Below are positions 38,037 to 50,856 of a stretch of DNA of 64,000 bases, one piece after another. The stretch spans positions 38,609-102,608 of the forward strand of contig JBAMLY010000009.1 of the NCBI GenBank assembly GCA_039794045.1. Direction: 5' to 3'. The stretch is from Candidatus Micrarchaeia archaeon. GTDB taxonomy: Archaea > Micrarchaeota > Micrarchaeia > Norongarragalinales > UBA8480. Under the pieces are notes generated by a model. That model did not search any database and had not been told where the DNA came from. It was given only the letters and a program-made list of their open reading frames with translations. The first letter of the stretch is position 1, and every line of letters starts with the position of its first letter. The translations under genes and the position numbers were made by a program.

Positions 38037-38088
38037 CGCTGCCACAAAGCTTTTTGAACACTCGCCGCATTCTATTTTTGAGCGCAAA

Positions 38089-39645
38089 ATGGCTTACTTG
38101 GACGAATTGATAGGGAAAGCGAAAGCGCAAAAAAAGGGAGTGGCTGGGCTCACGCCTGGCACGAAAGAACCAGAAAAGCCAGGCGGGCCAGAAAAAGAAA
38201 AAGTGTTGATTGACACTTACGACTCAGTCCACATCTACCGCGTGCCAGGAGAAGCCCTCTACTTCTACGAAGTCCCAACCCCGCGCTACCGCGGCGAAGA
38301 AAAAGCCTTGATTCAAGCCCTCATGGACATCGCAAGCAAAGTAATAGAAAGCGAGCACGAAGTCCCCCGCACTCTAGAGCAAAAGCGTTTCGCTTACAAG
38401 CAAAAAATCCTTGACATAATAGAGTCAACGCCGGAACTCAAAGTGCCGCCTGCCGCTAAAGAATTTTATGCTGACGCGGTAGTGCGCGAGATGGTAGGCT
38501 GGGGCTTGATAGACCCGCTCCTGGAAGACGAGTGGCTTGAAGATGTTATGGTGAACGGCCCAAACCAGCCAGTCTACGTCTTCCACAGGAAATACGACAT
38601 GATGAAGACGAACATAGTCTTCTACGACGACAAAGACATTCGCGACTTGATAGACCGCATCGCGCGCACCATAGGACGCCACATAGACATTCAAACCCCT
38701 TTGCTGGACGCGAGGCTCCCCGACGGAACGCGCGTGAACGCAACAGTGCCGCCAGCGAGCTTGAACGGCTCCACTTTGTCAATAAGAAAGTTCCGCACCG
38801 ACCCAATAACCATAATAGACTTAGTAAACTACGGCACGCTCAACTACGAAGTGGCCGCGTTTCTTTGGCTGGCAGCCGACGGCTTCGGAGCAAAGCCAGC
38901 CAACATGATAATAAGCGGCGGCACGGCAAGCGGGAAGACGACGCTATTGAACGTCATCTCGTCACTGGTGCCGAACAGCGAGCGCGTCATCACAATAGAA
39001 GACACTGCTGAACTCAACTTGCCGCTGGAGCAATGGGTTCGCTTTGAAACAAGGCCTCCTGGCGTGGAGGGCGGCGGCGAACTCACGATGGACATGCTGT
39101 TAAAGAACTCGCTGCGCATGAGGCCAGACCGCATCATTGTCGGCGAAATCCGGGGAGAGGAAGGACACACTCTTTTCTCGGCGATGAACACAGGACACGA
39201 CGGCTGCCTTGGAACGCTTCACGCAAACAGCGCGCGTGAAACCCTCATTCGCCTCAGCAACCCGCCAATCAACGTTCCCCTCATAATGCTTTCTTCCCTC
39301 AACTTCATCATAATGGAGCAGAGAATCAATGACCGCCGCAAGGGACTCATTCGCCGCATCACGGAAATAGCGGAAGTGATTTCAGTAGAGGAAAACAAGA
39401 TGCCCGAACTCCAAGTAATCTATCAATGGGACCCCGCAAAAGACGTCCTGCAAAGCACTGGAATGAATCCCTTGTACTTCCAAGTACTGCAGCGCTACAC
39501 GGCCTACACCAAGGACGTCATAGAAGAAGAACTCAAAAACCGCGCCAACATATTGAGGGAACTAAACTCGCGTGGCGTGCGCAGCCTCTCTGACGTGTGC
39601 GCCGTAACCCACAACTACATCTTGCGCACTCAAGGAAAACTGTGA
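38089..39645 (+). CDS. Type IV pilus assembly ATPase (FlaI/PilB/TadA-like); start moved to MAYLDEL
   Basis: Walker A ISGGTASGKTT, Asp/His boxes (RPDRIIVGEIRG, GTLHANS). It heads a locus with PilC-like genes and many prepilins. Confidence 0.85.
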   Translation: MAYLDELIGKAKAQKKGVAGLTPGTKEPEKPGGPEKEKVLIDTYDSVHIYRVPGEALYFYEVPTPRYRGEEKALIQALMDIASKVIESEHEVPRTLEQKRFAYKQKILDIIESTPELKVPPAAKEFYADAVVREMVGWGLIDPLLEDEWLEDVMVNGPNQPVYVFHRKYDMMKTNIVFYDDKDIRDLIDRIARTIGRHIDIQTPLLDARLPDGTRVNATVPPASLNGSTLSIRKFRTDPITIIDLVNYGTLNYEVAAFLWLAADGFGAKPANMIISGGTASGKTTLLNVISSLVPNSERVITIEDTAELNLPLEQWVRFETRPPGVEGGGELTMDMLLKNSLRMRPDRIIVGEIRGEEGHTLFSAMNTGHDGCLGTLHANSARETLIRLSNPPINVPLIMLSSLNFIIMEQRINDRRKGLIRRITEIAEVISVEENKMPELQVIYQWDPAKDVLQSTGMNPLYFQVLQRYTAYTKDVIEEELKNRANILRELNSRGVRSLSDVCAVTHNYILRTQGKL

Positions 39646-39657
39646 GGCCTTCAGTGA

Positions 39658-40797
39658 ATGCCTGAAAGCAAGCTGGAAAAAATAAAGCGCGCCGTGGAAA
39701 AAACAGAGCTTGAAACCCGCGCCGAAGTCTTGAAGGAAGAAGAGCTGGCGCGCCGCCGCGAACTCGACGAAATAATCGCAAAACTCAAGGAAAAACAAAA
39801 AAAAGGTTTTGTGGCAGAAAAGCGGCTGGAAAAAATAAAGGAGCACGTAGAAGAAAAACCAGAAATAAGCGAGGAAGAAACCAAGGCAGCAATCCGCTTG
39901 CAAGTAAGCAAGACGAAGGGAGTAGGCTGGTTTTACTCTTCCCTGCAAAAACCCATAACTTCAGTGTCAAAAGTTTTCTCTGTTATTCCAGTCGCAAAAA
40001 ACTTGAAGAAAGAACTCGCAAGCGCAGACATGCACATCACGCCAGAAGCCTACCTCGCCCTAACTACCACGGTCTCCGTCATAGCCGCAATAACTACTTG
40101 GATTGCCGCAGGCATTCTAGCGACTAGCTTGAGTAACTTGAGTGTAATAGAAATAGCTTCATCTATCTCGCTTGCCTTCGTTGGAGCAGTGCTGGCGTTC
40201 TTCGGGGTTTCTGCAGTCGCGCTCGCTTACCCTTCAATTCGCGCGTCCGAGCGAGCAAACAAAATAGACAAGGAACTGCCGTTCGCGTTGCGCCACCTCG
40301 CCACTCAACTCAAGGCCGGCGTGAGCCTCAACCGCGCAATGCGGTCAGTCGCGGACGCCAACTACGGCGCACTCACGCAAGAGTTCAGAAAAACGCTCGC
40401 TGACTTGGAGAGCGGCTTGAGCACGGAAGACGCGTTATTGAAGCTTGCAGACCGCAACCGCTCTCGAGGCCTAAAGCGCGCGGTAGTGCAAATAACGCGC
40501 GCGATCAGGACGGGCGGAAACCTCGCCGAAATAATTTCATCCATAGCAGACGACATCTCGTTTGAGTCCCGCATGAAAATACGCGACTTCACGGAAATGC
40601 TGAACATAATAAGCATAGTCTACATAATGGTAGGAGTAGTCGCGCCAGTAATGATAACCATTCTGTCCGCCGTAGCCCAGCTGCCAGTGTTCGGTGGCGG
40701 GATAGCATTCGGATTAGTGCTCGCAGTGTTCGCGGGAATAGTGGGCGCTACTGGCGCCCTCATCTTCCTAATCAAGAGACTAGAACCAGTAGCGTGA
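39658..40797 (+). CDS. Type IV pilus platform membrane protein (TadC/FlaJ/PilC-like)
   Basis: 379 aa with a coiled-coil N-terminus, then TM helices and a GspF/TadC-like cytoplasmic segment (LPFALRHLATQLKAGVSLNRAMRSVAD). Follows the ATPase. Confidence 0.65.
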   Translation: MPESKLEKIKRAVEKTELETRAEVLKEEELARRRELDEIIAKLKEKQKKGFVAEKRLEKIKEHVEEKPEISEEETKAAIRLQVSKTKGVGWFYSSLQKPITSVSKVFSVIPVAKNLKKELASADMHITPEAYLALTTTVSVIAAITTWIAAGILATSLSNLSVIEIASSISLAFVGAVLAFFGVSAVALAYPSIRASERANKIDKELPFALRHLATQLKAGVSLNRAMRSVADANYGALTQEFRKTLADLESGLSTEDALLKLADRNRSRGLKRAVVQITRAIRTGGNLAEIISSIADDISFESRMKIRDFTEMLNIISIVYIMVGVVAPVMITILSAVAQLPVFGGGIAFGLVLAVFAGIVGATGALIFLIKRLEPVA

Positions 40798-40801
40798 AAA
40801 A

Positions 40802-41845
40802 ATGACTTCGCTTTCGCAGCAGTGGGAAAACTTGAAGCGCTACTATGCGGCAACCGGCTTCCGAATAAGCCTGCCTGCCTTCATGGCGGTGATGCTGGCT
40901 TTCGCGGCAATAGCTGCCATGGCAAGCCTTGCGTTAATTCAACTCTTGCCGCCGGACTTGAAGCAGAACGCCCCCATAGTCGCGGCAGCATGCTTTGCAG
41001 CAATAATTTCGTTAATCATAGGCATTCCCGTTACGATCAGAAACAACCGCATTTCAGCAATAGAAAATAACTTGCCTGACGCGCTCAAGCACATGGCTTT
41101 AGTATTAAAGGCAGGCGGAACCACTGAAGCCGCGCTAGAAGAAGTGGCGAACGCAGACTACGGCCCACTCAGCGCAGACCTCAAAATTGGCTTGAAGGGC
41201 TTGAAGGAAGGAAAGCCGTTCGACGACGTGCTCCGCGAAACCGCAATAAACACTGGCTCGGTGTTGTTCAACAGGACTAGCGCAATAATGGTTGACGCGC
41301 GCCGCGCTGGCGCTGGCTTGGCAGATGTCATGAACGCGGTGGGAGACGACGCGCGAGACATTCTCCGCATCGGGCGCGAGCGAAAGAGTAGGACGATGAT
41401 GCACGTAATGTTCCTAATAATTTCAGGGTTGTTTCTCTCGCCATTCATTTTCGGCTTCACGATGAGCATTGTTTCCTTCATGTCTTCCGGAATTGCAGTG
41501 AGCGGCACAGGGCTCGGCGAAAGCGGGAGCACCGTCAACATGACAATCGCAGACTGCAGGGTTCCCTGCCTCATTCAAACCGACCCAGTAATGGCTGGCT
41601 TTCTCGCGGCCGGCCTTGCTCCCTTGAACACCGTAAAGCCATTGTACGAGTGGAGGCTCAACGCAATGGACCAGCTTTTAATGGTTTTCCTCGCAATAGT
41701 TTCAATAGTCACGCTCGTAGCAATAGGAGTTATAAGGGAAGGAAAACTGTTCAAGTACGTGCTTTACTTCCCCTTCGCCATACTCGCAGTAATAGTAATA
41801 TATTTGGCTGGAAAAATATTCAGTGGATTCATTATTGGGTCGTGA
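40802..41845 (+). CDS. Second TadC/FlaJ/PilC-like platform membrane protein
   Basis: 347 aa, paralogous in layout (LPDALKHMALVLKAGGTTEAALEEVANADYG). Tandem with the 39658 gene, as split PilC halves would be. Confidence 0.65.
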   Translation: MTSLSQQWENLKRYYAATGFRISLPAFMAVMLAFAAIAAMASLALIQLLPPDLKQNAPIVAAACFAAIISLIIGIPVTIRNNRISAIENNLPDALKHMALVLKAGGTTEAALEEVANADYGPLSADLKIGLKGLKEGKPFDDVLRETAINTGSVLFNRTSAIMVDARRAGAGLADVMNAVGDDARDILRIGRERKSRTMMHVMFLIISGLFLSPFIFGFTMSIVSFMSSGIAVSGTGLGESGSTVNMTIADCRVPCLIQTDPVMAGFLAAGLAPLNTVKPLYEWRLNAMDQLLMVFLAIVSIVTLVAIGVIREGKLFKYVLYFPFAILAVIVIYLAGKIFSGFIIGS

Positions 41846-41849
41846 AAAA

Positions 41850-41951: not shown

Positions 41952-41958
41952 AAGAAAA

Positions 41959-42165
41959 ATGGATGAAAAAGCACAGGGAGCATTCGAGTACATTTTAATG
42001 CTGGCAGGCATTCTCTTGATCGTGGTCGTAATAATAATGGTGGTGAAGTCCAACATTCTCTCGCCGGCCACAGGGACAGTAGAACAAACAACTGGTCAAT
42101 ACCAGCAAACCACTAACTGTAGTGACTTGAACGCTTCAACGCTGCAGGAATGCTTGAACAAATAA
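41959..42165 (+). CDS. Short pilin (68 aa), class III signal peptide MDEKA|QGAFEY
   Basis: The signal peptide and helix are nearly identical to the four major pilin paralogs, but the C-terminal part is short (2 Cys, sequons NCS, NAS). Confidence 0.6.
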   Translation: MDEKAQGAFEYILMLAGILLIVVVIIMVVKSNILSPATGTVEQTTGQYQQTTNCSDLNASTLQECLNK

Positions 42166-42179
42166 GGAAGGTGAAAAAA

Positions 42180-42602
42180 ATGGGTTTTGCGCCGCGAAAG
42201 GGACAGGGAGCCTTCGAGTACATATTATTGCTCGCTGGCATTCTCTTAATAGTAGTAATCGTAATAATAGTCCTCAAAAGCGGTTTGACGCAGCAGTCGA
42301 GCACGAACATTGGAGAGTCAAGCGAGAAAATCCGCGTGAACGCGGCAGTGCGGTGCCTAGACTTCTGCGGCGACGGCGCGTGGGCTTGGGTAAAGTCAGC
42401 TAACTCGTCGATAACGCTTCAATACAACTCTTCTTGCCCGATTGCCGCAGGACTCAATGGAACTCCTAATTGCTTCTGGACTGGAAGCGACAACGCCGTC
42501 GGCTGCAACGCCACGTGGTCTACTGGAAGCAGCGTCTACGCCAACACTCCGCCCAACAACGCGAAATTCTGTCAGTTGGCGCAGCAGAGCTCGAGCAGCT
42601 GA
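42180..42602 (+). CDS. Major pilin paralog 1 (class III signal peptide, 6-Cys framework)
   Basis: MGFAPRKG|QGAFEYILLLAGILLIVV, then CLDFCGDGAW and C..NC..GCNAT..FC. Sequons NSS, NSS, NGT, NAT. RBS AGGAAGGTG upstream. Confidence 0.75.
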   Translation: MGFAPRKGQGAFEYILLLAGILLIVVIVIIVLKSGLTQQSSTNIGESSEKIRVNAAVRCLDFCGDGAWAWVKSANSSITLQYNSSCPIAAGLNGTPNCFWTGSDNAVGCNATWSTGSSVYANTPPNNAKFCQLAQQSSSS

Positions 42603-42610
42603 GCGCCACC

Positions 42611-42643
42611 CCTCTTTTTATTTTTATTCAAACTATTTTTTTC
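42611..42643 (+). promoter_or_regulatory. AT/T-rich intergenic element (TTTTTATTTTTATT): putative TATA/BRE promoter for pilin paralog 2 and T-rich terminator for paralog 1
   Basis: This is the only AT-rich stretch between the two pilin ORFs and lies about 20-30 nt upstream of the ATG at 42644. Confidence 0.35.
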
Positions 42644-43081
42644 ATGCCACGAAAACGCGGGCAAGGAGCTTTTGAATACATCTTGTTAGTCGCAGGCATT
42701 CTGTTAATCGTGGTCGTCGTCGTCTTGCTCTTGAAGTCAGGCGTAGTGCAAGGCGCGCAGAAAAACGTTGGCGAAAGCAGTGGAAGGCTTTCCGTGAACA
42801 GCAAGATAAGCTGCCTAGATTTCTGCGGCGAAGGGGCTTGGAGTTACGTGGCGAACGCCGAGCCAAGCGCGCGCGTGACGCCTTACGTTGACGCGTGCAC
42901 TCTCGCGGAAGGAGTGAACGGCAACGCTTCCTGTTTTTACGGTGAAAGCGACGCGGCTGCGCGCGACGGCGCCTACCATTACTGGTGCAACGCATCCAAC
43001 GTGACTGGAATGCAGAAGTACGCAAACACGCGTCCCAACAACCAGTTGTTCTGCGGCTACGTGCGCGAAAACGCTCCCTGA
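42644..43081 (+). CDS. Major pilin paralog 2; start moved to MPRKRG|QGAFEY
   Basis: Same signal peptide; CLDFCGEGAW, AC..SC..WCNAS..FCGYV. Sequons NAS, NAS, NVT. Confidence 0.75.
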   Translation: MPRKRGQGAFEYILLVAGILLIVVVVVLLLKSGVVQGAQKNVGESSGRLSVNSKISCLDFCGEGAWSYVANAEPSARVTPYVDACTLAEGVNGNASCFYGESDAAARDGAYHYWCNASNVTGMQKYANTRPNNQLFCGYVRENAP

Positions 43082-43099
43082 AAAGAATTTATATCGCGG

Positions 43100-43588
43100 T
43101 TGATTATTGGCTTAAACGGTTTGAGAGAGATTAAATTGAGAATTCCAGAGTTTGGGAAAAGAGGCCAGGGAGCCTTTGAATACATTTTGCTCGTCGCAGG
43201 CATTCTGCTCATCGTCGTGCTCGTCATACTACTCCTAAAGGGCGGGCTGGTGTCGCAAAGCGGTGCCAACGTGGCCGAGTCAGGCGAGAAAGCACGCATA
43301 AACAGCGAAATAAATTGCCTGCAATTCTGTGGCGCTGGCGCGTGGAAGTACATAACGCCAAATGCGAAGGGTAATTACACTAATTGCACTGTAAGAGAAG
43401 GAATAACCGGCAATCCGGCGTGCTTCTGGAACGCCAGCACTGGCGACACGGCAACCTGCAACGTCACTGCAGTTCTCATCGAGGCAGGCTATACTCCATC
43501 CGAGGCAGCAAAATACTACAATGTAACGCCCGCCAACACTGACTTCTGCGGCTACGTAAGGCAGACCGCCAAGGAAAGCACGAGGTAA
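43100..43588 (+). CDS. Major pilin paralog 3 (start uncertain: TTG at 43100, 43121 or 43136)
   Basis: ...EFGKRG|QGAFEYILLVAGILLIVV; CLQFCGAGAW, NC..AC..TCNVT..FCGYV. Sequons NYT, NCT, NAS, NVT, NVT. A TTTATAT box sits at about 43088. Confidence 0.7.
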   Translation: MIIGLNGLREIKLRIPEFGKRGQGAFEYILLVAGILLIVVLVILLLKGGLVSQSGANVAESGEKARINSEINCLQFCGAGAWKYITPNAKGNYTNCTVREGITGNPACFWNASTGDTATCNVTAVLIEAGYTPSEAAKYYNVTPANTDFCGYVRQTAKESTR

Positions 43589-43686
43589 GCAACGCGACCC
43601 ACCCGTGACTTTAAAAAAGCCACGAAATTTATTTTTAAAGAAGTGAACGCCTTCGAGGCGTTAAAAAGAATGGAGGGAAAAAGAAA

Positions 43687-44157
43687 ATGGTGCCCACCTT
43701 GAATTTAAAAAAGAAGAAAGGGCAGGGAGCCTTCGAGTACATCTTGCTCGTCGCAGGCATTCTGCTCATCGTAGTAATCGTGGTCTTCCTGTTGAAGGGA
43801 GGACTGCAAGCGCAAGCCGGAAGCGGCGGTGTAGTAAGCACGAGCACGGAAAAAATCAACATCAACGTGGAAAGCCAGTGCTTGGACTTCTGCGGCCCGG
43901 GCGCTTGGGCAGCGTACGGAGTGCAAAACAGTGACTTCGCAAACACTAATTGCACTCTCGCCGAAGGAGTAAACGGCAACAGCAGCTGCTACTACTCTGC
44001 AACCACTATAGGCAATAACGGCTTATGTAACGCGACTTACGTCTTAAAGCCCGGCGTTGCGCAAAGCAAGGGCTTACTGAACTCAAGTGGCGCCACGGTA
44101 GTACACCCGCAGAACACGCAGTTCTGCACTTACGTGCGCCAAGCAAGAGCAGGCTAG
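43687..44157 (+). CDS. Major pilin paralog 4
   Basis: MVPTLNLKKKKG|QGAFEYILLVAGILLIVV; CLDFCGPGAW, NC..SC..LCNAT..FCTYV. Sequons NCT, NSS, NAT, NSS. GGAGGG RBS upstream. Confidence 0.75.
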   Translation: MVPTLNLKKKKGQGAFEYILLVAGILLIVVIVVFLLKGGLQAQAGSGGVVSTSTEKININVESQCLDFCGPGAWAAYGVQNSDFANTNCTLAEGVNGNSSCYYSATTIGNNGLCNATYVLKPGVAQSKGLLNSSGATVVHPQNTQFCTYVRQARAG

Positions 44158-44235
44158 AACTTCCCGCTTTTCCCCCTTTTTTTATTTCTTCTTTTCCCTA
44201 AACCTTTTTATTGAAGGCGGGCCTGCAATAAAGTC

Positions 44236-44406
44236 ATGGACGAGCGAGCGCAGACCGCCACTGAGTACTTGCTTATTCTAGCGCTTGGCCTCGTCTTGCT
44301 CGGCGTCGTGCTCGCCATGGCTTTGCGCCTCCGCGACTTCAGCAACGTCTTGACCGGCCGCGTGGCAGAAGAAAGAAACAATACCTTGTCGATGCTAGTC
44401 AGCTGA
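44236..44406 (+). CDS. Minipilin (56 aa) with class III signal peptide; absent from the ORF track
   Basis: MDERA|QTATEYLLILALGLVLLGVVLAMAL.... The start mirrors the ORFs at 1846 and 41959. Confidence 0.5.
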   Translation: MDERAQTATEYLLILALGLVLLGVVLAMALRLRDFSNVLTGRVAEERNNTLSMLVS

Positions 44407-44439
44407 ACTAATTTTATACCAGCGGCGCTACTTGATTGC

Positions 44440-45492
44440 ATGCAGTACGCCTTGCCGGCATTAGTGGCAGCAGCTTTTGCTTGCACTGCAACAGTGTGGG
44501 ACTTGAGGAAGCGCTTGATTCCCAACGCGTTAAACTATTCATTTCTCGCCGCGGGGGCGGCGCTGGCGCTAGCGCAAGGAATTTTTTCTGTGGGTTACGT
44601 CGGACTAGTTGCGTTGTCTTTTGCTTTCGCTTATGCTTTGTACAAGGCAGGCGTTTGGGCTGGGGGAGACGCAAAGTTTTTCACGGCGCTCTCGTCTTTC
44701 CTGCCTTTCTTTTGGCAAGTACCGTTGACTGGCTGGAACGTTTTCTCTTTCCTAGCAATATTTTTTTACTCGGTGGCAGCAGGAGTGCCTGTCACTCTCC
44801 TCGCTTGCGCGCCAAAGCTGTGGTTGTTGCGTGGCGAGCTCGCTTCGCTCTTGCGCGCAGCAGCGCCGCGCGCTTTCTCGGCAGCGCTTGCTTCAGCGGC
44901 GGTTGCCTTTGCGTTGCAAAAGTTTTTCGCGCTCGTTCCACAAGCTGGTTGGGTTGCCTCGGCAGCCGCAGTCGTGTTTTTGTTGGCGGCGCGCGTGCCG
45001 CTAGCGGTTTCTGCGGCCGTCTTCGTTGCCGCTCTCGCGCTAGACCCGTTGAACTCGCTTGAGTTGTTTGCTGGCGCGCTCGCGGTCTCGTGGCTTGCGT
45101 TGTTCGCGTGGCAGGCGCTCGCGCTTGCCAGGAACAAGGTTTTGCGCCGCCACGTGAGAGTAGACGAGTTAGAAGAGGGAATGATTCCGGCTTACTCTGT
45201 GGTCGTTGACGAGAGCGGAAGAGCGCGGGAGTTGAGAACGCCTGGCTTAAAGGAGTTGCTTGCCGCCGCGGGAAAGGCTGATGCTGCCGCGCTGGCGCGG
45301 TTGCTCAAGCCACGGGAAAGAATAGTCGCGGACTCCAGGCTAGCTCGTGGTTTGAGTGAGACAGAGATAAAGGAATTAAAGGCGCTTGGAGTAAAGAGTT
45401 TGGTTGTCCGCGAGTCCATCGCGTTCGCGCCAGTAATGGTTGCTGGGTTCGCGTTGGCGGCTTTGCTGGGAGTGAAGTGGCTTGGCTTTTAA
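44440..45492 (+). CDS. Prepilin/preflagellin peptidase (A24 family, FlaK/PibD/EppA-like)
   Basis: First catalytic Asp in DLRKRLIPN, second in GGDAKFF, and a polytopic membrane topology. At 350 aa it has a long hydrophobic C-terminal extension. Confidence 0.8.
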   Translation: MQYALPALVAAAFACTATVWDLRKRLIPNALNYSFLAAGAALALAQGIFSVGYVGLVALSFAFAYALYKAGVWAGGDAKFFTALSSFLPFFWQVPLTGWNVFSFLAIFFYSVAAGVPVTLLACAPKLWLLRGELASLLRAAAPRAFSAALASAAVAFALQKFFALVPQAGWVASAAAVVFLLAARVPLAVSAAVFVAALALDPLNSLELFAGALAVSWLALFAWQALALARNKVLRRHVRVDELEEGMIPAYSVVVDESGRARELRTPGLKELLAAAGKADAAALARLLKPRERIVADSRLARGLSETEIKELKALGVKSLVVRESIAFAPVMVAGFALAALLGVKWLGF

Positions 45493-45916
45493 GAGAGGAC
45501 AGTTGGGAATAGAGTTTTTCTTGGTGGTGGCGTTCGTGCTTGTTCTCGGCAGCGTCTTGAGTGCTTCCGTGGACGAGCAAGTCATTGCCGCGAGGGCCTT
45601 AGACAGGGCTGCGCTAGCGAAAAGCGCGGTGGATGCAGTGTCTCACGCAATAAACCTCGTCACGCTGGAAGGCAACGGGGCTCTTGCCAGCAGAGAAGTT
45701 TTCTTTCCAGCTGAAACGCAGTGCATCCAGTACAGCAGCGCACGCAAGGCGCTTTACTGCGATGTCGCGGGAGCAGGCAAGGTTTACGGCGTAGCGCTTT
45801 ACCGCGAGCCGACAGTGTTACTGAATTGTTTTTCTTCAGGCACTCAAGGCTGGTTCCTTGTGACCGTGAATGGAACCAGCAATGGAGCGCAAGTTAATTG
45901 TACTAAACTGGGTTGA
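45482..45916 (+). CDS. Pilin-like protein (class III signal peptide MAFKRG|QLGIEFF), TTG start
   Basis: Q+1 and E+5, a hydrophobic helix and 3 Cys. It overlaps the peptidase stop by 11 nt. Confidence 0.6.
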   Translation: MAFKRGQLGIEFFLVVAFVLVLGSVLSASVDEQVIAARALDRAALAKSAVDAVSHAINLVTLEGNGALASREVFFPAETQCIQYSSARKALYCDVAGAGKVYGVALYREPTVLLNCFSSGTQGWFLVTVNGTSNGAQVNCTKLG

Positions 45917-45922
45917 AGTTGT

Positions 45923-46312
45923 TTGCGGGGGCAAGCTTTTTCAGAGTATTTGCTCGTCGTCGCCTTCATCGTGGCGCTGGCGGCGTTCTTCGTGCTTCCA
46001 GGCGCCCACCAAACAGAGGTGACGATGGGCTTGGCTGGCGCGCGCCTGGGTTGCGCGGAATACTCTGCAATTGAAAACTCTTCAGTTTACTGCACAGAGT
46101 TTTCTTACGCGGCAAGCGGACCGAACTTGACTATTTATCCCAAGGTGTTCGACTTGCAAGGCAAAAGAGTCACGGACTTGCCTGGAAGTTTTTACGCGCG
46201 AGTAATTTCAGGCATCGCAGGAAACATTTTAAACAACCGGAGTTTTTCTTGCGTTAACTGTATTTCGTGTTGGGTGGGGCACTACAATTACTGTGTTAAC
46301 GCGACGAGTTGA
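45923..46312 (+). CDS. Pilin-like protein (class III signal peptide MRG|QAFSEYLL), TTG start
   Basis: Q+1 and E+5, 6 Cys, sequons NSS, NLT, NRS, NAT. Confidence 0.6.
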   Translation: MRGQAFSEYLLVVAFIVALAAFFVLPGAHQTEVTMGLAGARLGCAEYSAIENSSVYCTEFSYAASGPNLTIYPKVFDLQGKRVTDLPGSFYARVISGIAGNILNNRSFSCVNCISCWVGHYNYCVNATS

Positions 46313-46836
46313 TGCGAGTGGACAACGCTTCAAAGTTTTACTTGCTGCTTGTTTGCGGGCTCGCGTTCGCCAGCGTTTCGGCTTTCGCGGAACCTTTGTT
46401 AGCGTTCGCTGGCTTTGCAGCGTTCTTGGTTGCAGCCATTGCTTTATCTAAGCGGTTCAAGGAAGCCGAGTTAAATGACGCGTGGAAGCTGCTCGCGCTC
46501 ACTGCCGTGATGGCTGCGCTCATGTTCAACGCGCGGTTGTTGTCTCGCGCTGGCGCTTTCGCCGTCGCAGTTGCGCTTGCTGTAGTCGTAGCGGCGTTCA
46601 CTGCGTTCAAGTTGCTTGCAAGCCGCAACGCGGTTGGCAGGGTGGTGGGGAGAAGGCGCGGCTTCATTTTAGTTGAAACAACTCGTTCGCTCTTGTCTCC
46701 TCTTCCTCCAGGAGTTTACGCCGTGAAAAGCACTGCAAGGCACCGAGAAGGAGAAAAAGTTGAGTTGCGCGTGAGCAAGGGCTTGTTTGGCCCGCCAAAG
46801 CCCGTGGAAGTGCTTTCTTGCAAGAAAAAGGAATAA
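46312..46836 (+). CDS. Membrane protein with C-terminal beta-rich (possibly NfeD-like OB) domain
   Basis: Three TM helices then GFILVETTRSLLSPLPPGVYAVKS...GEKVELRVSKG. Its ATG overlaps the upstream stop (TGATG). Confidence 0.4.
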   Translation: MRVDNASKFYLLLVCGLAFASVSAFAEPLLAFAGFAAFLVAAIALSKRFKEAELNDAWKLLALTAVMAALMFNARLLSRAGAFAVAVALAVVVAAFTAFKLLASRNAVGRVVGRRRGFILVETTRSLLSPLPPGVYAVKSTARHREGEKVELRVSKGLFGPPKPVEVLSCKKKE

Positions 46837-47201
46837 TTTTTTTCTGCGTCATCGTCTCGCTTGCAGGGGTGGCGGCGCTGTTTTTCTTGTCTTGGTCTCT
46901 CGAGCCACGCAAGGCAGCAATAAACGAGTTGGGTTTGGAGGACGTCGGCAAGAAAGTGCTTGTTTCTGGGTTTGTGGCGTCCGCGCGCAAGTCTGGCGGA
47001 AACTATTTCTTGAAGGTCTGCGATTCAAGCGCCTGCATTCAAGTCCCCGTTTTTTCCTCTGTTGCGGCGAGAATGAAGGAAAGGGGTTTTGACGCGGGCA
47101 GCGTGGGAAAGGGAGACTTCATTGAAGTAGTAGGCGCGGTAAGCGAGTACGGCGGCGAGCTCGAAGTCGTGGCAGCCGAGTTAGACGTGCTTAGAAAATG
47201 A
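46818..47201 (+). CDS. Membrane-anchored OB-fold protein
   Basis: N-terminal TM helix then KKVLVSGFVASARKSGGNYFLKVCDSSACIQV...GDFIEVVGAVSEYGGELEVV, a typical OB-fold (tRNA_anti-like) pattern. Confidence 0.45.
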   Translation: MQEKGIIFFCVIVSLAGVAALFFLSWSLEPRKAAINELGLEDVGKKVLVSGFVASARKSGGNYFLKVCDSSACIQVPVFSSVAARMKERGFDAGSVGKGDFIEVVGAVSEYGGELEVVAAELDVLRK

Positions 47202-48343
47202 GTGAGTTAGTCGCTTTTCTTGCTGGAACCGCGGTCGGCGCGCTCGGATTGATTCCGTTTCTTCACACTAACACTTTAGTGGAGTTGCTTCCGCGTTTTC
47301 TTGAAAGCGGGCCTGCAGCCGTTTTCGTGGTCTCCCTCGCCTTCAGCCACGCCGTGTTCGAAGTGCTTCCCGCGACTTTCTTTGCGGTGCCGTCCGCCTC
47401 GCAGAACATAAGCGTCGTGCCTGCGCACAGGCTAGCTCGCGAGGGGAAAGGCTTTCAAGCAATGAAGTTGATGGCTTACTCTCTCGCCGCCGGCGTTTTC
47501 TTTGGCGTGCTCGCGTCTCCTGCAGCCACGTTCTTGCTTCCATTGGCTTACTCGCTCGTCAAGCCAGTTACGGCCTTGCTTTTGTGCGGCGTGGTCGCAG
47601 TAATGCTCGCAGGAGAAAAAAACTTTTTCGCGGGATTGATTGTAGCGTGCTTGTCTGGATTGCTGGGCTTAGCTTCTTTTGGCTTGCCTCTCCCAGAACC
47701 AGTTTTTCCTTTGCTGGCGGGCTTGTTCGCAGTTCCTGCAGCGCTTGCTGGCGCTCGCGCGAGCGAGTTGGTGGAGCAGAGTGCGGGCGAACCACGCGTG
47801 CCGTGGGCGATGGTGCTGCTCGGCGCTTTTCTTGGCGCGTGCTCTGGGTTGCTGCCTGCCTTGAGTCCCGCCCTCTTGGCGGGAATCGCTTTCGTCTTCG
47901 TCAAGTCTGGTTCGGAGAAATTCATTGCTTTGACTTCCTCGATTGCCGGCGCAAAACTGGTTTCCGACTTGATAGTGCTTGGAGAGCTCGGCAAGGCCAG
48001 GTCTGGCGCGGCCGCAGCAGTGCAAAGCTTTCTTGGAGTGCCTTCTGCAACTGAAACCACTTTATTGGTGGTAGCGGGCGCGGCTGCGCTCGCGGCAGCG
48101 CTGGCTGCGCTGTTGCTGGTTTACAGGCGGGCCGCGCTAGCGCTTTGCGGCAAAAACTATGCTTTTTCAAGCAAGGTTTTCTTGTCGTTCTTGGCAGTCA
48201 TGTTGTTCTTTTTCGGTGGTTGGCTGGCTTTATTTGTTTGCGCTGTCGCCGCGTGCGTGGGAGTGCTTGCGCTCTTGCTGAATTGCAAGCGCAGCCTATG
48301 CTGTGCGGCGCTCTTGGTTCCAGCAATAGCTGCCTTGATTTAA
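47198..48343 (+). CDS. Polytopic Ala/Gly-rich membrane protein (possibly DUF112/TctA-like)
   Basis: 381 aa with roughly 10 TM helices. ATGA overlap with the upstream gene. The family call is from memory. Confidence 0.45.
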   Translation: MSELVAFLAGTAVGALGLIPFLHTNTLVELLPRFLESGPAAVFVVSLAFSHAVFEVLPATFFAVPSASQNISVVPAHRLAREGKGFQAMKLMAYSLAAGVFFGVLASPAATFLLPLAYSLVKPVTALLLCGVVAVMLAGEKNFFAGLIVACLSGLLGLASFGLPLPEPVFPLLAGLFAVPAALAGARASELVEQSAGEPRVPWAMVLLGAFLGACSGLLPALSPALLAGIAFVFVKSGSEKFIALTSSIAGAKLVSDLIVLGELGKARSGAAAAVQSFLGVPSATETTLLVVAGAAALAAALAALLLVYRRAALALCGKNYAFSSKVFLSFLAVMLFFFGGWLALFVCAVAACVGVLALLLNCKRSLCCAALLVPAIAALI

Positions 48344-48373
48344 CTCTTTTAAACCGAGGCGAGTAATGTTTTC

Positions 48374-48790
48374 ATGGTGCGCGCCCAACTGTCAATTGAA
48401 TTGTTTTTTGCTTTAGCATTGTTTTTCCTGGTGCTTTCGTGGGTGTCAAACTATGCTTCCACTGTCTATGACTCGCCAGCCCTCGTTTACACGCAGGAAA
48501 AAGCGGTAGCCAACTCACTGGTTGCCGCCGCGAACGCAGCCTGCGCTTCAAACACTTCGTCTTCTTTTTATTTGCCCTGCATTTCCAAGCGCGGCACAAA
48601 CTACGACTACGAGGCATTCAACGCGACCTCTAACTCGCCCGAGTTGCGAGTGCGCGTTCCAGCCCTGAACTCGTTCGCGCAAGCCAGGGCCTTGTGCCCA
48701 ATTTCAGGTTACGCCTCGGCTGAATGCGGGACTCTCGTGTGCATGAAAAGTAATTCTTCGTCAGTGTTGCTGAAAAACGGTGCTTGTTGA
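48374..48790 (+). CDS. Pilin-like secreted protein (class III signal peptide MVRA|QLSIELFF)
   Basis: Q+1 and E+5, 7 Cys, sequons NTS, NAT, NSS. Confidence 0.55.
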   Translation: MVRAQLSIELFFALALFFLVLSWVSNYASTVYDSPALVYTQEKAVANSLVAAANAACASNTSSSFYLPCISKRGTNYDYEAFNATSNSPELRVRVPALNSFAQARALCPISGYASAECGTLVCMKSNSSSVLLKNGAC

Positions 48791-49162
48791 GTGAAGGGAC
48801 AATTTTTCACAATGGATTTCCTCGCCGCAATAATAGTGGTCACTGCAGTGGTAGGTGGAATGCTTCACTTCCACGAACTCAACCAAAAAGCCTTCCTGCG
48901 CGCGACTGAATACAACTCTAACTCTGCTGAAGCGCTGGCGGAATACTTCGTGAACAACAACGCCACGCCTCCCTTCCAGCCGGCTTGCTGGTGCGCAGTG
49001 ATGCGGAACGCGACAAGCGTTTTCTACGACGACTGCAGAGAAAAAGAGTGCATGCGTTCTTGCAGTACGGTGTTCGCAGCAACGCGTCTTTCCCGCTACT
49101 GCTTGAACGCTACTTGCCCATGCGAAGGAGTTTCGTGTGCTTTAGAGGTGAGAACGTGCTGA
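48791..49162 (+). CDS. Cys-rich pilin-like secreted protein (MKG|QFFTMDF), GTG start
   Basis: K-G-Q motif plus a hydrophobic helix, 11 Cys, and three NAT sequons. The start codon abuts the upstream stop. Confidence 0.5.
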   Translation: MKGQFFTMDFLAAIIVVTAVVGGMLHFHELNQKAFLRATEYNSNSAEALAEYFVNNNATPPFQPACWCAVMRNATSVFYDDCREKECMRSCSTVFAATRLSRYCLNATCPCEGVSCALEVRTC

Positions 49163-49542
49163 AGGCCGCCATACTGTCTTTCGACGCGCTGCTGGCGCTT
49201 GCCGTCGCCGCTATAGCGTTCGGCTCAGTTGTTTCGTTCAGCAGCCTTGGCGCCGACAACTCCAAGAACGCACAGTTGAACGCGTTGGCGTGGGACTTCC
49301 TACACGACAAATACGGATTGAATTTGACTGTTTCAGCTGACGACTTCCACAACTTGACTGGACGCCACGTATTCGAAAGCCCTCCTTCAACAGCGCCCGC
49401 CGGGCACGCTCTTTACTACAAGTACAACAACTTGTGCGGTTGCGGGCAGTCATGCTACCTTGAAAACGAAATTAACACGTCGTGCTTGGAAGCGCAGGAC
49501 AATAACTCGAAGTACGAGTTCGAGGCTTGGGTGACTCCTTGA
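49156..49542 (+). CDS. Secreted or membrane-anchored protein with N-terminal hydrophobic helix (GTG start overlapping the upstream stop)
   Basis: GTGCTGA start-stop overlap. MLKAAILSFDALLALAVAAIAF, then CGCGQSC and sequons NLT, NLT, NTS. Confidence 0.4.
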   Translation: MLKAAILSFDALLALAVAAIAFGSVVSFSSLGADNSKNAQLNALAWDFLHDKYGLNLTVSADDFHNLTGRHVFESPPSTAPAGHALYYKYNNLCGCGQSCYLENEINTSCLEAQDNNSKYEFEAWVTP

Positions 49543-50192
49543 AAGCGTTTTTTTCGGCTTTGAGCGCGGCCCTCGTCATCGCAGCGATAACTGCTTCCGC
49601 GATCGCCGTACTCCACCTCTCCTCTCAAGAGGAAGTACAGCTCGCGCAAGTTTCAGCGAAAATAGCTTCCGATCGCCACGCATCAGTAAAACAGTTTTTC
49701 GCTGACGCTGTGAACGACGCCTTAGCTGACGCGGCTTACTCTGTTTACGGGTGCGCGCCATCCAAGCCAAATTTTTGCGAGCAAGTGAATCGCTCCACGT
49801 CTACAGACAAGGTCGTGGCTTACCTGAATTGGTCGCTTTCAGCCACTAACAACTCGCTAGTGGCAGTGTCTTACTCTCTCGCCAACCCTTACGCAACCCT
49901 CCCTTACGAGTGCTACGAGTTCGCCGCAGAACCCGGCTACAACCACTCATTCAATTACTCGACGCTATTGAACTTGCGAGTGGACTCGCCGAACGCCTTC
50001 AAACAAGACCAAACGCTTTTGTCCCGCAACGTTTCAGTGCGCGACTACGCACCAAAAATAATTAATGCAAGTCAAACTTGCTCGGAAGCCCAGTTGCTGC
50101 GCATCACGATTACCGGCAACTACGGTGCCGCCAAAGACTTCCTAGTAGACTGCAACCAAACCATCGACTTAGGCAACAACCCCTGCCCCTAA
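49539..50192 (+). CDS. Secreted or membrane-anchored protein with N-terminal hydrophobic helix (TTG start overlapping the upstream stop)
   Basis: cTTGAa overlap. MKAFFSALSAALVIAAITASAIAVL, and many sequons (NRS, NWS, NNS, NHS, NYS, NVS, NAS, NQT). An alternative TTG start lies at 49527. Confidence 0.4.
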   Translation: MKAFFSALSAALVIAAITASAIAVLHLSSQEEVQLAQVSAKIASDRHASVKQFFADAVNDALADAAYSVYGCAPSKPNFCEQVNRSTSTDKVVAYLNWSLSATNNSLVAVSYSLANPYATLPYECYEFAAEPGYNHSFNYSTLLNLRVDSPNAFKQDQTLLSRNVSVRDYAPKIINASQTCSEAQLLRITITGNYGAAKDFLVDCNQTIDLGNNPCP

Positions 50193-50238
50193 GTTTTTCG
50201 CAAGGATTTAAAGAGGAAACAACTCTTACTAGTAAGGG

Positions 50239-50856
50239 ATGCAAATGACTAAAAAACTCGTATTATGGGCTTTGTTCTTCCTCGTGCTCGCAATAGTCGT
50301 GCCTCCCTTCCTAAGCTTAGTGGACTATTCATTGAACGCCAAAAACTCGCAGCAAATAGACGCGGCACTCGCCGCGAAGCTAATCAAGGACGACGCGCGC
50401 GCGGCGTTCGGCGAGAGCGCGGCAGTCACGCTTAAGTCGCTCAACCAGAAAAACGGCAAATGGGAAGCAGAAGTGGAAATAGAGCAAGAACCGCACTCTG
50501 CCTGCCCAAAGCTCTACCGCCGGTATTACTCCCTTATGCCTATTTACTCGGTGACCGAAAACGTTTTGACTTCCTGTCAAGCCCTGCCCCCCGTAAGCAA
50601 CCGCGTCGAAGCAATAATTTTTTCTTCAAAGCTAGCCTCAATAGCGCAGCACGCTAATGCTAACGCCTACGCTTGCGCGTTCAAGGCCGGCGAAGAAATA
50701 GACTCTTCTTACTGCCCGAAAGCCAGTCCCGCCGAAATAAAGGCGTTCGCTGACTCTACGCCACGAGCTCGCTGGATAACCGCCTGGTTTTACGGCGACG
50801 GTTCAACTGCACTAATAGCCTTGGACGAGAAAGGAAGCGTGGTAGCGCAGCGCTAG
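50239..50856 (+). CDS. Secreted protein with signal anchor
   Basis: MQMTKKLVLWALFFLVLAIVVPPFLSL. Length 205 aa. Last gene of the pilus locus. Confidence 0.45.
   Translation: MQMTKKLVLWALFFLVLAIVVPPFLSLVDYSLNAKNSQQIDAALAAKLIKDDARAAFGESAAVTLKSLNQKNGKWEAEVEIEQEPHSACPKLYRRYYSLMPIYSVTENVLTSCQALPPVSNRVEAIIFSSKLASIAQHANANAYACAFKAGEEIDSSYCPKASPAEIKAFADSTPRARWITAWFYGDGSTALIALDEKGSVVAQR

What the first reader, a model, noticed from the sequence alone, without database searches (positions are those of the whole stretch)
48374..50856. Distal operon of five overlapping genes for Cys-rich, sequon-rich secreted proteins with pilin-type or signal-anchor N-termini
Genes at 48374, 48791, 49156, 49539 and 50239 follow each other with 0-nt, 7-nt (GTGCTGA) and 4-nt (cTTGAa) junctions. 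The first two carry class III motifs (RA|QLSIE and KG|QFF). All have one N-terminal hydrophobic helix and unusually many Cys (up to 11 in 123 aa) and N-x-S/T sites. They resemble the minor-pilin sets (GspH-K-like) that prime fibre assembly or form a tip adhesin, but the sequences themselves are unrecognisable. They are plausible ligand-binding tip components.
Basis: partly seen in the sequence, partly recalled or inferred. Interest (0 to 1): 0.6.

Follow-up and report, generated by a model that had tools for sequence, protein, structure and literature searches.

The report
Minor-pilin set beside archaeal DNA-uptake genes
Four of the five genes encode pilin-like proteins and the fifth a membrane-anchored helper; in Micrarchaeota they always sit right after two genes whose Methanococcus counterparts are needed for natural DNA uptake, so they are candidate parts of that still poorly understood archaeal machinery.

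Summary
The five genes are real and conserved. The window comes from a Candidatus Micrarchaeota (DPANN archaeon) genome assembled from a metagenome.

- **g5 (50239-50856):** this is different. It follows a 46-nt spacer, has a plain signal anchor and no sequons, and its model (pLDDT 93) shows cystatin/NTF2/VirB8-like alpha+beta domains.
the block lies in a 13-kb type IV pilus operon, directly after a membrane-anchored OB-fold protein and a TctA-like permease. Published genetics show that this pair is essential for natural transformation in Methanococcus maripaludis.
- **Conservation:** OB-TctA-g1-g2-g3-g4-g5 is conserved in more than 15 Micrarchaeota genomes, down to about 25% identity. It sometimes occurs without the pilus ATPase nearby.

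Best reading: a dedicated minor-pilin initiation/tip set plus one accessory protein, coupled to the OB/TctA pair. A role in DNA uptake is plausible but untested. No known family matches any of the five proteins.

The parts
48374..48790 (+). g1: 138-aa pilin-like protein, MVRA|QLSIE (Q+1, E+5), 6 conserved Cys, C-terminal G-A-C
   Evidence: alignment A4. Q+1, E+5, W23, P68-C69 and C118 are invariant in 15 orthologues. The N-terminal segment resembles u1 (hhalign probability 92%).
48791..49162 (+). g2: 123-aa pilin-like protein, MKG|QFFTMD (Q+1, D+6), 10 Cys, C-terminal C-x-LEVR-x-C
   Evidence: A5. Q+1, D+6, G22, R99, E119 and C123 are invariant in 13 orthologues. GGTG lies 8 nt upstream of the GTG start.
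49156..49542 (+). g3: 128-aa pilin-like protein (135 aa if GTG 49135 is the start), LKA|AILSFDAL (D+6), C-terminal E-x-W-V-x-P
   Evidence: A6. D10, L12, D47, Y90 and V126 are invariant. GAGGTGA at 49145-49151 lies 4 nt before the GTG start. In locus L007 the orthologue carries an insert of about 200 aa.
49539..50192 (+). g4: 217-aa pilin-like protein, MKA|FFSAL, with no acidic residue after the cleavage site; the largest and most sequon-rich of the set (8 sites)
50239..50856 (+). g5: 205-aa bitopic protein (203 aa from ATG 50245) with an N-terminal signal anchor, conserved PHSxCP..RRYY motif, 4 conserved Cys and 0 sequons
50193..50238 (+). g4-g5 spacer: T5 run directly after the g4 stop, and TATA-like TTTAAAG at 50207-50213 about 29 nt before the g5 ATG
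   Evidence: Orthologous loci also have a 45-105-nt spacer here. Promoter or terminator function is inferred only.
47198..48343 (+). TctA-family polytopic membrane protein (381 aa) with the conserved IGKARSGAA motif
   Evidence: PF01970, E 1.5e-25; relatives. A TctA-like protein is essential for transformation in M. maripaludis and M. thermophilus (PMC10133366).
46818..47201 (+). Single-pass membrane protein with an OB-fold domain (127 aa); overlaps the TctA-like gene by 4 nt
   Evidence: PF01336, E 2.5e-10. Same architecture as MMJJ_13020, which is essential for transformation. The OB-TctA pair is kept in Micrarchaeota, Hadarchaeota and another archaeon.
46309..46836 (+). u3: multi-pass membrane protein with a small C-terminal soluble domain (175 aa)
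   Evidence: Conserved upstream of the OB gene in 7 or more loci. Only a weak DUF2101 hit.
45923..46312 (+). u2: pilin-like protein, MRG|QAFSEY (Q+1, E+5), 129 aa
   Evidence: 11 orthologues, always just upstream of (u3-)OB-TctA.
45482..45916 (+). u1: pilin-like protein, KRG|QLGIEF (Q+1, E+5), 144 aa
   Evidence: 9 orthologues.
44440..45492 (+). Prepilin peptidase (Peptidase_A24 plus Arc_PepC)
41959..44406 (+). Five Class_IIIsignal pilin paralogues (KG|QGAFEYILL; four have 6-Cys heads) and a 56-aa mini-pilin (44236-44406)
   Evidence: PF04021 hits; sequon density 2.1-3.2 per 100 aa.
38002..41845 (+). Pilus assembly ATPase (T2SSE) and two TadC/T2SSF platform proteins
   Evidence: The same composition (one ATPase, two platform proteins) as EpdL/EpdJ/EpdK of M. 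maripaludis.

Best explanation
g1-g4 are four type IV pilin-like (class III signal peptide) proteins, and g5 is a bitopic membrane accessory protein. Together with the membrane-anchored OB-fold protein and the TctA-like permease just upstream, they form a conserved seven-gene unit specific to Micrarchaeota.

**Proposed mechanism**
1. The A24 peptidase encoded in the operon cleaves g1-g4 after the G/A at position -1.
2. The mature subunits assemble through their N-terminal helices into an initiation/tip complex. g4, the largest subunit and the one without an acidic residue, caps it, as GspK or PilX does in bacteria.
3. This complex primes a short filament or the pilus, which the ATPase and the two TadC-like platform proteins extend from the KG|QGAFEY major pilins (u1 and u2 are further pilin-like subunits).
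4. The filament works next to the OB/TctA pair. By analogy with the ComG pseudopilus plus ComEA/ComEC in bacteria, it would bring DNA through the surface layer to the OB-fold receptor and the TctA-like channel. For a genome-reduced symbiont this would supply nucleotides as well as genes.
5. g5 would be a membrane-anchored scaffold at the base.

**Shown:** the genes, motifs, synteny and operon context; the modelled pilin fold of g4 and non-pilin fold of g5; and the published Methanococcus genetics for an OB/TctA pair.

**Inferred:** cleavage, complex formation, the cap role of g4, physical coupling to OB/TctA, and DNA as the cargo.
For: **Prepilin-type N-termini.** They are conserved in 12-15 orthologues per family.

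**Similarity pattern.** The families resemble each other, and u1/u2, only in the first 30-60 residues (hhalign 44-93%), not in the heads. This is the usual pattern for pilins.

**Operon content.** The A24 peptidase, T2SSE ATPase, two T2SSF proteins and PF04021 pilins are in the same operon.

**Glycosylation signal.** g1-g4 share the 4.5-7.5-fold sequon enrichment of the major pilins.

**Synteny.**
- OB-TctA-g1-g4(-g5) is present in every Micrarchaeota locus with enough downstream sequence.
- This includes L036, where g5 is only 26% identical.
- In L007 and L010 the unit stands without the ATPase and TadC genes within the available flank.

[quoted passage not shown] Epd pilins have Q+1 and E+5, a dedicated peptidase and two platform proteins (PMC3875500), as here.
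Against: - There is no experimental evidence for expression, cleavage or assembly.
- g1-g4 do not reach any Pfam or NCBIfam threshold, including PF04021; the best hits are E 0.02-0.06 in a few orthologues.
- The g4 model rests on a shallow alignment of 16 rows from 9 clusters.
- g2 and g3 carry D at +6 rather than E at +5.
- The heads of g1-g5 and the OB domain are mostly acidic (median pI 4.5-5.2), which does not favour direct DNA binding.
- Orthology of this OB/TctA pair to MMJJ_13020/13030 could not be tested.
- The Methanococcus study did not check whether its OB/TctA mutants still make pili. That pair may therefore serve pilus biogenesis rather than DNA transport.
- Outside Micrarchaeota, pilin-like genes are not regularly next to the OB-TctA pair. 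One Hadarchaeales locus (L025) has them, and three relatives do not.
Confidence: 0.55

Rival explanations
1. g1-g4 are minor pilins or tip adhesins of an attachment pilus that the episymbiont uses to hold on to its host or to surfaces. Their position next to OB/TctA reflects co-regulation or a shared envelope location, not DNA uptake.
For: - The pilin evidence is the same as for the best explanation.
- The heads are heavily glycosylation-prone and variable, as expected for surface-exposed parts.
- Related loci carry large beta-helix proteins, one with a class III signal peptide, inside or beside the module. These look like adhesins (L049 and L010).
- One g3 orthologue has an insert of about 200 aa (L007).
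- The acidic heads argue against DNA binding.
Against: - The block stays with OB-TctA even where the ATPase, TadC and major pilin genes are not nearby (L007 and L010).
- Synteny with OB-TctA is kept down to about 25% identity.
- This window has no adhesin domain in g1-g5.
Confidence: 0.25
2. The N-termini are uncleaved signal anchors. g1-g5 are single-pass accessory subunits of the TctA-like transporter, functional stand-ins for the missing TctB/TctC, and have nothing to do with filaments.
For: - Genetic linkage to TctA is tight and constant.
- Archaea lack TctB and TctC (PMC10133366).
- g5 clearly has a plain anchor and a non-pilin fold.
- g1-g4 fail the PF04021 threshold.
Against: - The conserved [KR][GA]| junction, Q+1 and the acidic residue at +5/+6 are not needed for a simple anchor, yet they are invariant.
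- A prepilin peptidase and bona fide pilins are in the same operon.
- The g4 model has a pilin-type long helix plus sheet.
- Nothing resembles TctB or TctC.
Confidence: 0.12
3. The ORFs are chance reading frames, or the remains of decayed genes.
For: No database family matches them. The word-indexed search with g4 found only g4 itself.
Against: - Five collinear orthologue families occur in more than 15 genomes, with invariant residues and conserved lengths.
- g5 has 56 relatives in the representative library and folds with pLDDT 93.
- SD-like motifs lie at correct spacing.
Confidence: 0.01

Closest known systems
Bacterial core minor (pseudo)pilins GspH-I-J-K of the type II secretion system, and FimU-PilV-PilW-PilX of type IVa pili
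   Same: - Four consecutive small genes for prepilin-type proteins.
- The last is the largest and lacks the acidic residue near the N-terminus.
- The sets are thought to prime filament assembly and sit at the tip.
   Different: - No sequence homology is detectable.
- The system is archaeal and has no outer membrane.
- The acidic residue is D at +6 in g2 and g3.
- The heads are unrelated, Cys-rich and sequon-rich.
- The structural similarity is weak.
Epd (EppA-dependent) type IV-like pilus of Methanococcus maripaludis, with its minor pilins EpdA-D and extra essential genes
   Same: - One ATPase, two TadC-like platform proteins and a dedicated A24 peptidase.
- Pilins with Q+1 and E+5.
- Several minor pilins plus non-pilin accessory genes.
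- The pilus is required for natural transformation.
   Different: - All parts here lie in one operon, whereas in Methanococcus they lie in at least four separate places on the chromosome.
- Within this operon, no DUF2341 adhesin or MinD-like ATPase was seen.
- Homology of g1-g5 to Epd proteins could not be tested.
- g3 and g4 lack Q+1.
MMJJ_13020 (OB-fold, single transmembrane helix) and MMJJ_13030 (TctA-like) of M. maripaludis, essential for natural transformation
   Same: The two-gene architecture is the same: a single-pass OB-fold protein (PF01336) followed directly by a TctA-family permease (PF01970).
   Different: - In M. maripaludis the genes upstream of the pair are a YedE operon, and the papers read do not describe pilin genes beside it. 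Here the pair is embedded among pilin-like genes and is always followed by g1-g5.
- Orthology was not verified.
ComG pseudopilus (ComGC plus minor pilins ComGD-GG) with ComEA/ComEC in Gram-positive competence
   Same: The logic is the same: ATPase, platform, major pilin, four minor pilins, a membrane-anchored nucleic-acid-binding-fold protein and a polytopic channel candidate.
   Different: - This is an analogy only (own knowledge of the Bacillus system).
- ComEA uses helix-hairpin-helix motifs, not an OB fold.
- TctA is unrelated to ComEC.
- No nuclease domain was found.
VirB8/TraE-type bitopic assembly factors and PepSY/cystatin-like domains (for g5)
   Different: - Only about 70 of 205 residues align, at 6-12% identity.
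- This fold type is very common.
- Foldseek finds nothing at E of 1e-3 or better.
- No Pfam hit.

Membership tests
Archaeal type IV pilin-like proteins (class III signal peptide) | Short basic leader ending in G/A/S at -1, followed by about 20 hydrophobic residues | tested here: met
   g1 MVRA|Q, g2 MKG|Q, g3 (M)LKA|A and g4 MKA|F, conserved in 12-15 orthologues each. g5 does not have it.
Archaeal type IV pilin-like proteins (class III signal peptide) | Acidic residue at +5 of the mature protein | tested here: inconclusive
   g1 has an invariant E+5. g2 and g3 have an invariant D at +6. g4 has none in any orthologue.
Archaeal type IV pilin-like proteins (class III signal peptide) | Match to the Pfam Class_IIIsignal model (PF04021) above threshold | tested here: not met
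   The window proteins give no hit at E of 1 or better. Two g1 orthologues reach E 0.05. The major pilins of the same operon do pass.
Archaeal type IV pilin-like proteins (class III signal peptide) | Cognate prepilin peptidase and assembly ATPase/platform encoded with them | tested here: met
   Peptidase_A24 at 44440-45492, T2SSE at 38002-39645, and two T2SSF genes at 39658-41845.
Archaeal type IV pilin-like proteins (class III signal peptide) | Pilin fold: a long N-terminal helix whose C-terminal half packs on an antiparallel sheet | tested here: met
Archaeal type IV pilin-like proteins (class III signal peptide) | Cleavage by the prepilin peptidase and incorporation into a filament | not testable with these tools
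   This needs N-terminal proteomics or analysis of sheared filaments.
GspH-K / FimU-PilVWX core minor pilins | Sequence homology to the T2SS/T4P minor pilin families | tested here: not met
   There are no Pfam or NCBIfam hits. The PDB profile search with g4 finds no pilin.
GspH-K / FimU-PilVWX core minor pilins | Four adjacent genes, one of them (the K-type) larger and lacking E5 | tested here: met
   g1-g4 abut or overlap. g4 is 217 aa and has no acidic residue in any of 13 orthologues.
GspH-K / FimU-PilVWX core minor pilins | Formation of a staggered I-J-K-type tip complex | not testable with these tools
Epd-type pilus system (Methanococcus) | One ATPase plus two TadC-like platform proteins, a dedicated peptidase, and pilins with Q+1/E+5 | tested here: met
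   compared with the descriptions in PMC3875500 and PMC10133366.
Epd-type pilus system (Methanococcus) | Homology of g1-g5 to EpdA-I | not tested
Searching all 1.84 billion representatives with g5 (phmmer) gave only 56 relatives, and every one that carries a name is from Micrarchaeota.
Archaeal transformation pair OB-fold / TctA-like (MMJJ_13020/13030) | Single-pass OB-fold protein directly followed by a TctA-family polytopic protein | tested here: met
   PF01336 E 2.5e-10 and PF01970 E 1.5e-25, with a 4-nt overlap between the genes.
Archaeal transformation pair OB-fold / TctA-like (MMJJ_13020/13030) | About 11 transmembrane helices in the TctA-like protein | tested here: inconclusive
   A crude hydropathy scan gives 14 partly overlapping peaks, consistent with roughly 11-13 helices.
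Archaeal transformation pair OB-fold / TctA-like (MMJJ_13020/13030) | Orthology to the Methanococcus proteins and a requirement for DNA uptake | not testable with these tools
   No Methanococcus sequence was available, and the function needs genetics.
Tripartite tricarboxylate transporter accessory subunits TctB/TctC | A four-helix TctB, or a periplasmic binding protein TctC | tested here: not met
   g1-g5 each have one N-terminal helix and give no TctB or TctC hits.

The most novel reading that the evidence does not exclude
The operon at 38002-50856 would be the first physically consolidated archaeal competence machine. It combines an Epd-like pilus, a dedicated four-member pseudopilin tip/initiation set (g1-g4, an archaeal functional counterpart of GspH-K or ComGD-GG), a bitopic scaffold (g5), an OB-fold DNA receptor and a TctA-like DNA channel. 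On this reading the g1-g5 families are the missing envelope-crossing components of archaeal natural transformation, which DPANN symbionts use to scavenge DNA.
Probability: 0.3. Interest if true: 0.85.

Novelty: new variant of a known kind. Interest (0 to 1): 0.6.

Why it matters
How archaea take up DNA is largely unknown, because they have no ComEC or ComEA.
- **What genetics gave.** The one genetic screen, in Methanococcus, pointed to a pilus plus an OB-fold/TctA-like pair. Those parts are encoded at separate places on the chromosome, and how they connect is unclear.
- **What this locus adds.** In Micrarchaeota the same kinds of parts sit in a single operon, and five further conserved but unannotated proteins are locked to the OB/TctA pair. 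That yields concrete candidates for the missing components.
- **A testable prediction.** The locus suggests a four-subunit initiation/tip complex with a subunit lacking the acidic residue as cap, which would be an archaeal parallel to the bacterial core minor pilins.
- **An alternative for the Methanococcus result.** OB/TctA may be part of pilus biogenesis itself rather than a DNA channel.
- **Relevance to symbionts.** For genome-reduced DPANN symbionts, a DNA-uptake pilus would also be a plausible route for acquiring nucleotides.

Tried and rejected
1. **Family searches.** Pfam and NCBIfam scans of g1-g5, both the window proteins and all orthologues, gave nothing above threshold. The only hints were sub-threshold: Class_IIIsignal and DUF7287 for g1, DUF7288 and DUF7263 for g2.
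2. **Solved structures.** Profile searches of PDB sequences with g4 and g5 found nothing.
3. **Word-indexed homology search.** The search with g4 returned only g4 itself.
4. **Concatenated profile.** I put g1-g5 into one profile to recover all five families in the last permitted search. That search was wasted.
   - For g5, the way round was to use the hits of the representative search.
   - For g4, the way round was to register orthologues through exact cluster look-up.
   - No models could be made for g1-g3.
6. **Fold library.** The afdb50 library was unavailable.
7. **dN/dS.** Comparison with the near-identical assemblies gave 0 differences in g1-g5, so it was uninformative.
8. **Wider link between OB-TctA and pilin sets.** One Hadarchaeales locus (L025) has seven pilin-like genes next to the pair, with g2-, g3- and g4-like N-termini in the same order. 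Three related contigs do not, so I do not claim a general association outside Micrarchaeota.
9. **Search for a basic, DNA-binding pilin head.** None was found; the heads are acidic.
10. **Methanococcus gene context.** The surroundings of MMJJ_13020/13030 could not be retrieved. The literature only shows a YedE operon upstream.
Full report
**Source and setting.** Exact look-up of g4 and g5 places the window on contig JBMFOV010000002.1 of assembly GCA_049969435.1; a near-identical second assembly is GCA_049972335.1. NCBI names the neighbouring TctA-like protein as coming from 'Candidatus Micrarchaeia archaeon'. The five genes end a long run of genes on the + strand, 38002-50856:
- a T2SSE-type ATPase and two T2SSF/TadC-like platform proteins;
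- five PF04021 pilin paralogues with nearly identical KG|QGAFEYILL N-termini, plus a 56-aa mini-pilin;
- an A24 prepilin peptidase;
- two more pilin-like genes: u1 (KRG|QLGIEF) and u2 (RG|QAFSEY);
- a multi-pass membrane protein (u3);
- a single-pass protein with an OB-fold (PF01336, E 2.5e-10);
- a TctA-family permease (PF01970, E 1.5e-25);
- then g1-g5.

ABCE1 follows, convergently transcribed.

**Checking the observation.**
- Shine-Dalgarno-like motifs sit 4-8 nt upstream of the g2, g3 and g4 starts (GGTG, GAGGTGA, GGGTGA). The alternative g3 start at 49135, which the public gene call uses, also has an AAGGAG motif, so that start stays ambiguous.
- g5 is set apart by 46 nt. The spacer begins with a T5 run and holds a TATA-like TTTAAAG about 29 nt before the ATG. 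A similar TTTTAAA lies 24 nt before the g1 ATG. Internal promoters are therefore possible, but this is inference only.
- g2 has 10 Cys, not 11.
- Against 60 non-overlapping ORFs of the window (1.73% Cys, 0.49 sequons per 100 aa), g1-g4 have 2.8-8.1% Cys and 2.2-3.7 sequons per 100 aa. The major pilins are similar. g5 has 2.0% Cys and no sequon.

**Are they genes?** Yes.
- The word-indexed search with g4 found only g4 itself. Anchoring on the TctA-like neighbour worked better.
- Three metagenome or genome contigs, with TctA-like proteins 38-46% identical, show the same five small genes with near-identical lengths directly downstream. The lengths are 133/122/130/209/197, 159/151/148/217/201 and 149/113/330/207/193 aa. 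A further contig without DNA shows the same pattern.
- A scan of one genome per species returned 26 loci. Every Micrarchaeota locus with enough downstream sequence has g1-g4 after TctA, and all but one also have g5.
- A metagenome scan added five more loci.
- phmmer with g5 against 1.84 billion representative proteins found only 56 clusters, all about 180-215 aa apart from a few outliers. Those that carry names are from Micrarchaeota.
- One of the most distant g5 relatives (26% identity, L036) sits in an operon with the same gene content and order as the window, from the ATPase through to g5.

**What g1-g4 are.** All four orthologue families have a prepilin-type N-terminus.

| Protein | N-terminal site | Acidic residue | Other conserved features |
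|---|---|---|---|
| g1 | [KRH][AG]\|Q...E | E at +5 | Q+1, W23, P68-C69 and C118 invariant |
| g2 | [KR][AG]\|Q.[FL][ST].D | D at +6 | C-terminal C-x-LEVR-x-C |
| g3 | [KR][AG]\|x[ILVFM][FL][ST]xDAL | D at +6 | C-terminal E-x-W-V-x-P |
| g4 | [KR][AG]\|F | none in any orthologue | largest of the set |

- Profile-profile comparison shows similarity among g1-g4, u1 and u2 only in the first 30-60 residues: g1-u1 92%, u1-u2 93%, g2-g3 85%, g3-g4 44%. Nothing remains once the N-terminal helix is removed. This is how pilins of one system usually compare.
- An AlphaFold2 model of g4 was built on an alignment of nine orthologue clusters (pLDDT 75, pTM 0.66). It has a 70-residue N-terminal helix, two shorter helices and an antiparallel sheet.
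- None of g1-g4 reaches a Pfam or NCBIfam threshold. The only traces are sub-threshold hits of a few orthologues to Class_IIIsignal, DUF7287, DUF7288 and DUF7263.

**What g5 is.** g5 is not a pilin.
- It has a plain N-terminal anchor preceded by lysines.
- It has a conserved PHSxCP..RRYY segment and four conserved Cys.
- Its model is confident (pLDDT 93, pTM 0.79). After the anchor it shows a helix on a four-stranded curved sheet, followed by a second alpha+beta unit.
- This fold type is too common to assign a function. A role as a membrane-anchored scaffold or assembly factor is my inference.

- A full-text search for the combination of pili, TctA and OB-fold led to Fonseca et al. 2023 (PMC10133366). 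In a transposon screen in Methanococcus maripaludis JJ, most genes needed for natural transformation were components of the Epd type IV-like pilus.
[quoted passage not shown] Clean deletions of either abolished transformation and were complemented.
- A TctA-like homologue is also essential for transformation in Methanoculleus thermophilus. The authors propose the TctA-like protein as the DNA transporter that archaea, lacking ComEC, must have.
- The window carries the same two-gene architecture, inside the pilus operon and immediately before g1.
- Across Micrarchaeota the invariant core is (u2-u3-)OB-TctA-g1-g2-g3-g4-g5.
  - In L007 this unit begins right after a divergently transcribed gene, in the 3 kb of contig available upstream, with no u1-u3 and no pilus assembly genes before it.
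  - In L010 there is no ATPase or TadC gene within the 10 kb upstream.
- So g1-g5 travel with OB/TctA rather than with the pilus motor.
- The system otherwise resembles the Epd pilus: one ATPase, two platform proteins, a dedicated peptidase and pilins with Q+1/E+5 (PMC3875500). A census of archaeal type IV pili noted at least five putative minor pilins in such loci, but does not mention OB-fold or TctA proteins (PMC4858521).
- I found no paper linking Micrarchaeota and TctA.

**Mechanism proposed.**
1. The operon's A24 peptidase removes the short leaders of g1-g4. This is inferred from the motifs.
2. The four mature subunits form an initiation/tip complex through their N-terminal helices. g4, the largest and without the acidic residue, sits at the top. 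This is inferred by analogy with GspH-I-J-K and FimU-PilVWX, from my own knowledge of those systems.
3. The complex primes a filament built by the ATPase and the two platform proteins.
4. The filament operates beside the OB-fold protein and the TctA-like permease. If the Methanococcus interpretation is right, those two receive and translocate DNA.
5. g5 acts as a bitopic scaffold.

The overall logic mirrors ComG plus ComEA/ComEC of Gram-positive bacteria without any homology.

**Cautions.**
- Nothing here shows expression, cleavage or assembly.
- The heads of g1-g5 and the OB domain are mostly acidic (median pI 4.5-5.2), so no obvious DNA-binding pilin emerges.
- Orthology to the Methanococcus pair could not be checked.
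- The Methanococcus study did not report whether its OB/TctA mutants still make pili. Embedding of the pair among pilin genes can therefore equally mean that OB/TctA are needed for pilus biogenesis.
- Outside Micrarchaeota the association is not general.
  - Other DPANN lineages have the TctA-like gene alone.
  - One uncultured archaeon and several Hadarchaeota keep only the OB-TctA pair.
  - A single Hadarchaeales locus (L025) has seven divergently transcribed pilin-like genes beside the pair. They come in a suggestive order: E5, E5, FFSID, QTAPE, QVFTLD, FVFSLDA, and FALSGF without an acidic residue.

**Rivals.**
- An attachment pilus with tip adhesins, unconnected to DNA uptake, fits the pilin evidence. 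It also fits the beta-helix proteins found in related loci. It does not explain the constant linkage to OB/TctA.
- Uncleaved single-pass subunits of a TctA transporter would explain the linkage. That reading does not explain the invariant junction, Q+1 and acidic residues, or the pilin-like g4 model.
- Chance ORFs are excluded by the conservation.

**Verdict.**
- The minor-pilin interpretation is supported for g1-g4.
- The main added value is the conserved coupling to the OB/TctA pair, and five protein families with no match in Pfam or NCBIfam.
- I rate it a new variant of a known kind: an archaeal type IV pilus minor-pilin set in a new, fixed association.
- Interest is moderate to high, because it gives testable candidates for the archaeal DNA-uptake route.

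Noticed in passing
window 39-2115: A second cluster of pilin-like genes lies at the window start:
- 39-449 (+): MKKG|FFSSDAAIASLL
- 437-841 (+): VKG|LVFSVEALLSLL, a g3-like N-terminus
- 829-1260 (-): KHS|QASVELIILL, 3 sequons
- 1846-2115 (-): DEKA|QVSAELIII, a small pilin

None has a Pfam hit.
   Followed up: partly
window 35005-37652 (- strand) and 32631-34727 (+): HerA (DUF87, 35005-36525) and NurA (36546-37652), a DNA-end resection pair, are transcribed divergently from the pilus operon. An XPD-type helicase lies just beyond them. L004 also has an XPD-like helicase next to its pilus operon. A functional link to DNA uptake is pure speculation.
   Followed up: partly
window 44236-44406: A 56-aa mini-pilin (MDERA|QTATEYLL) lies between the major pilins and the peptidase. 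It is conserved at the same position in L004, L006, L016, L018, L019, L021 and L022.
   Followed up: no
window 41959-44157: There are five tandem pilin paralogues. Their N-termini are almost identical (KG|QGAFEYILL[LV]AGILLIVV). Four of them have divergent 6-Cys, sequon-rich heads, and the first is only 68 aa with 2 Cys.
   Followed up: no
L049 5794-8625; L010 5979-9302: Related Micrarchaeota loci carry large right-handed beta-helix proteins beside or inside the module. L049 has a 943-aa protein with a PF04021 class III signal peptide, just downstream of g5. L010 has an 853-aa beta-helix protein and a 220-aa protein between u1 and u2. These are candidate adhesins. The window has no equivalent.
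   Followed up: partly
L007 5456-6448: This g3 orthologue is 330 aa long. It has an insert of about 200 residues with 13 sequons between the conserved N- and C-terminal parts, which may be a grafted binding module. It has no Pfam match.
   Followed up: partly
L025 3580-8022 (- strand): In a Hadarchaeales genome, seven pilin-like genes lie next to OB-TctA and are transcribed divergently from it. Their N-termini run in an order that echoes u1, u2..., g2, g3, g4. The OB protein there is longer (226 aa). Three related contigs lack the pilin genes.
   Followed up: partly
window 52706-52906 (- strand): A 66-aa two-helix membrane protein lies between ABCE1 and Pelota. It is conserved at the same place in L004, L006 and L036. 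It has no Pfam hit.
   Followed up: no
window 46309-46836: u3 is a membrane protein whose C-terminal roughly 60 residues look like a small beta-barrel domain; a resemblance to NfeD is my impression only. It is conserved upstream of the OB gene in many loci. Its only family hit is a weak one to DUF2101.
   Followed up: no
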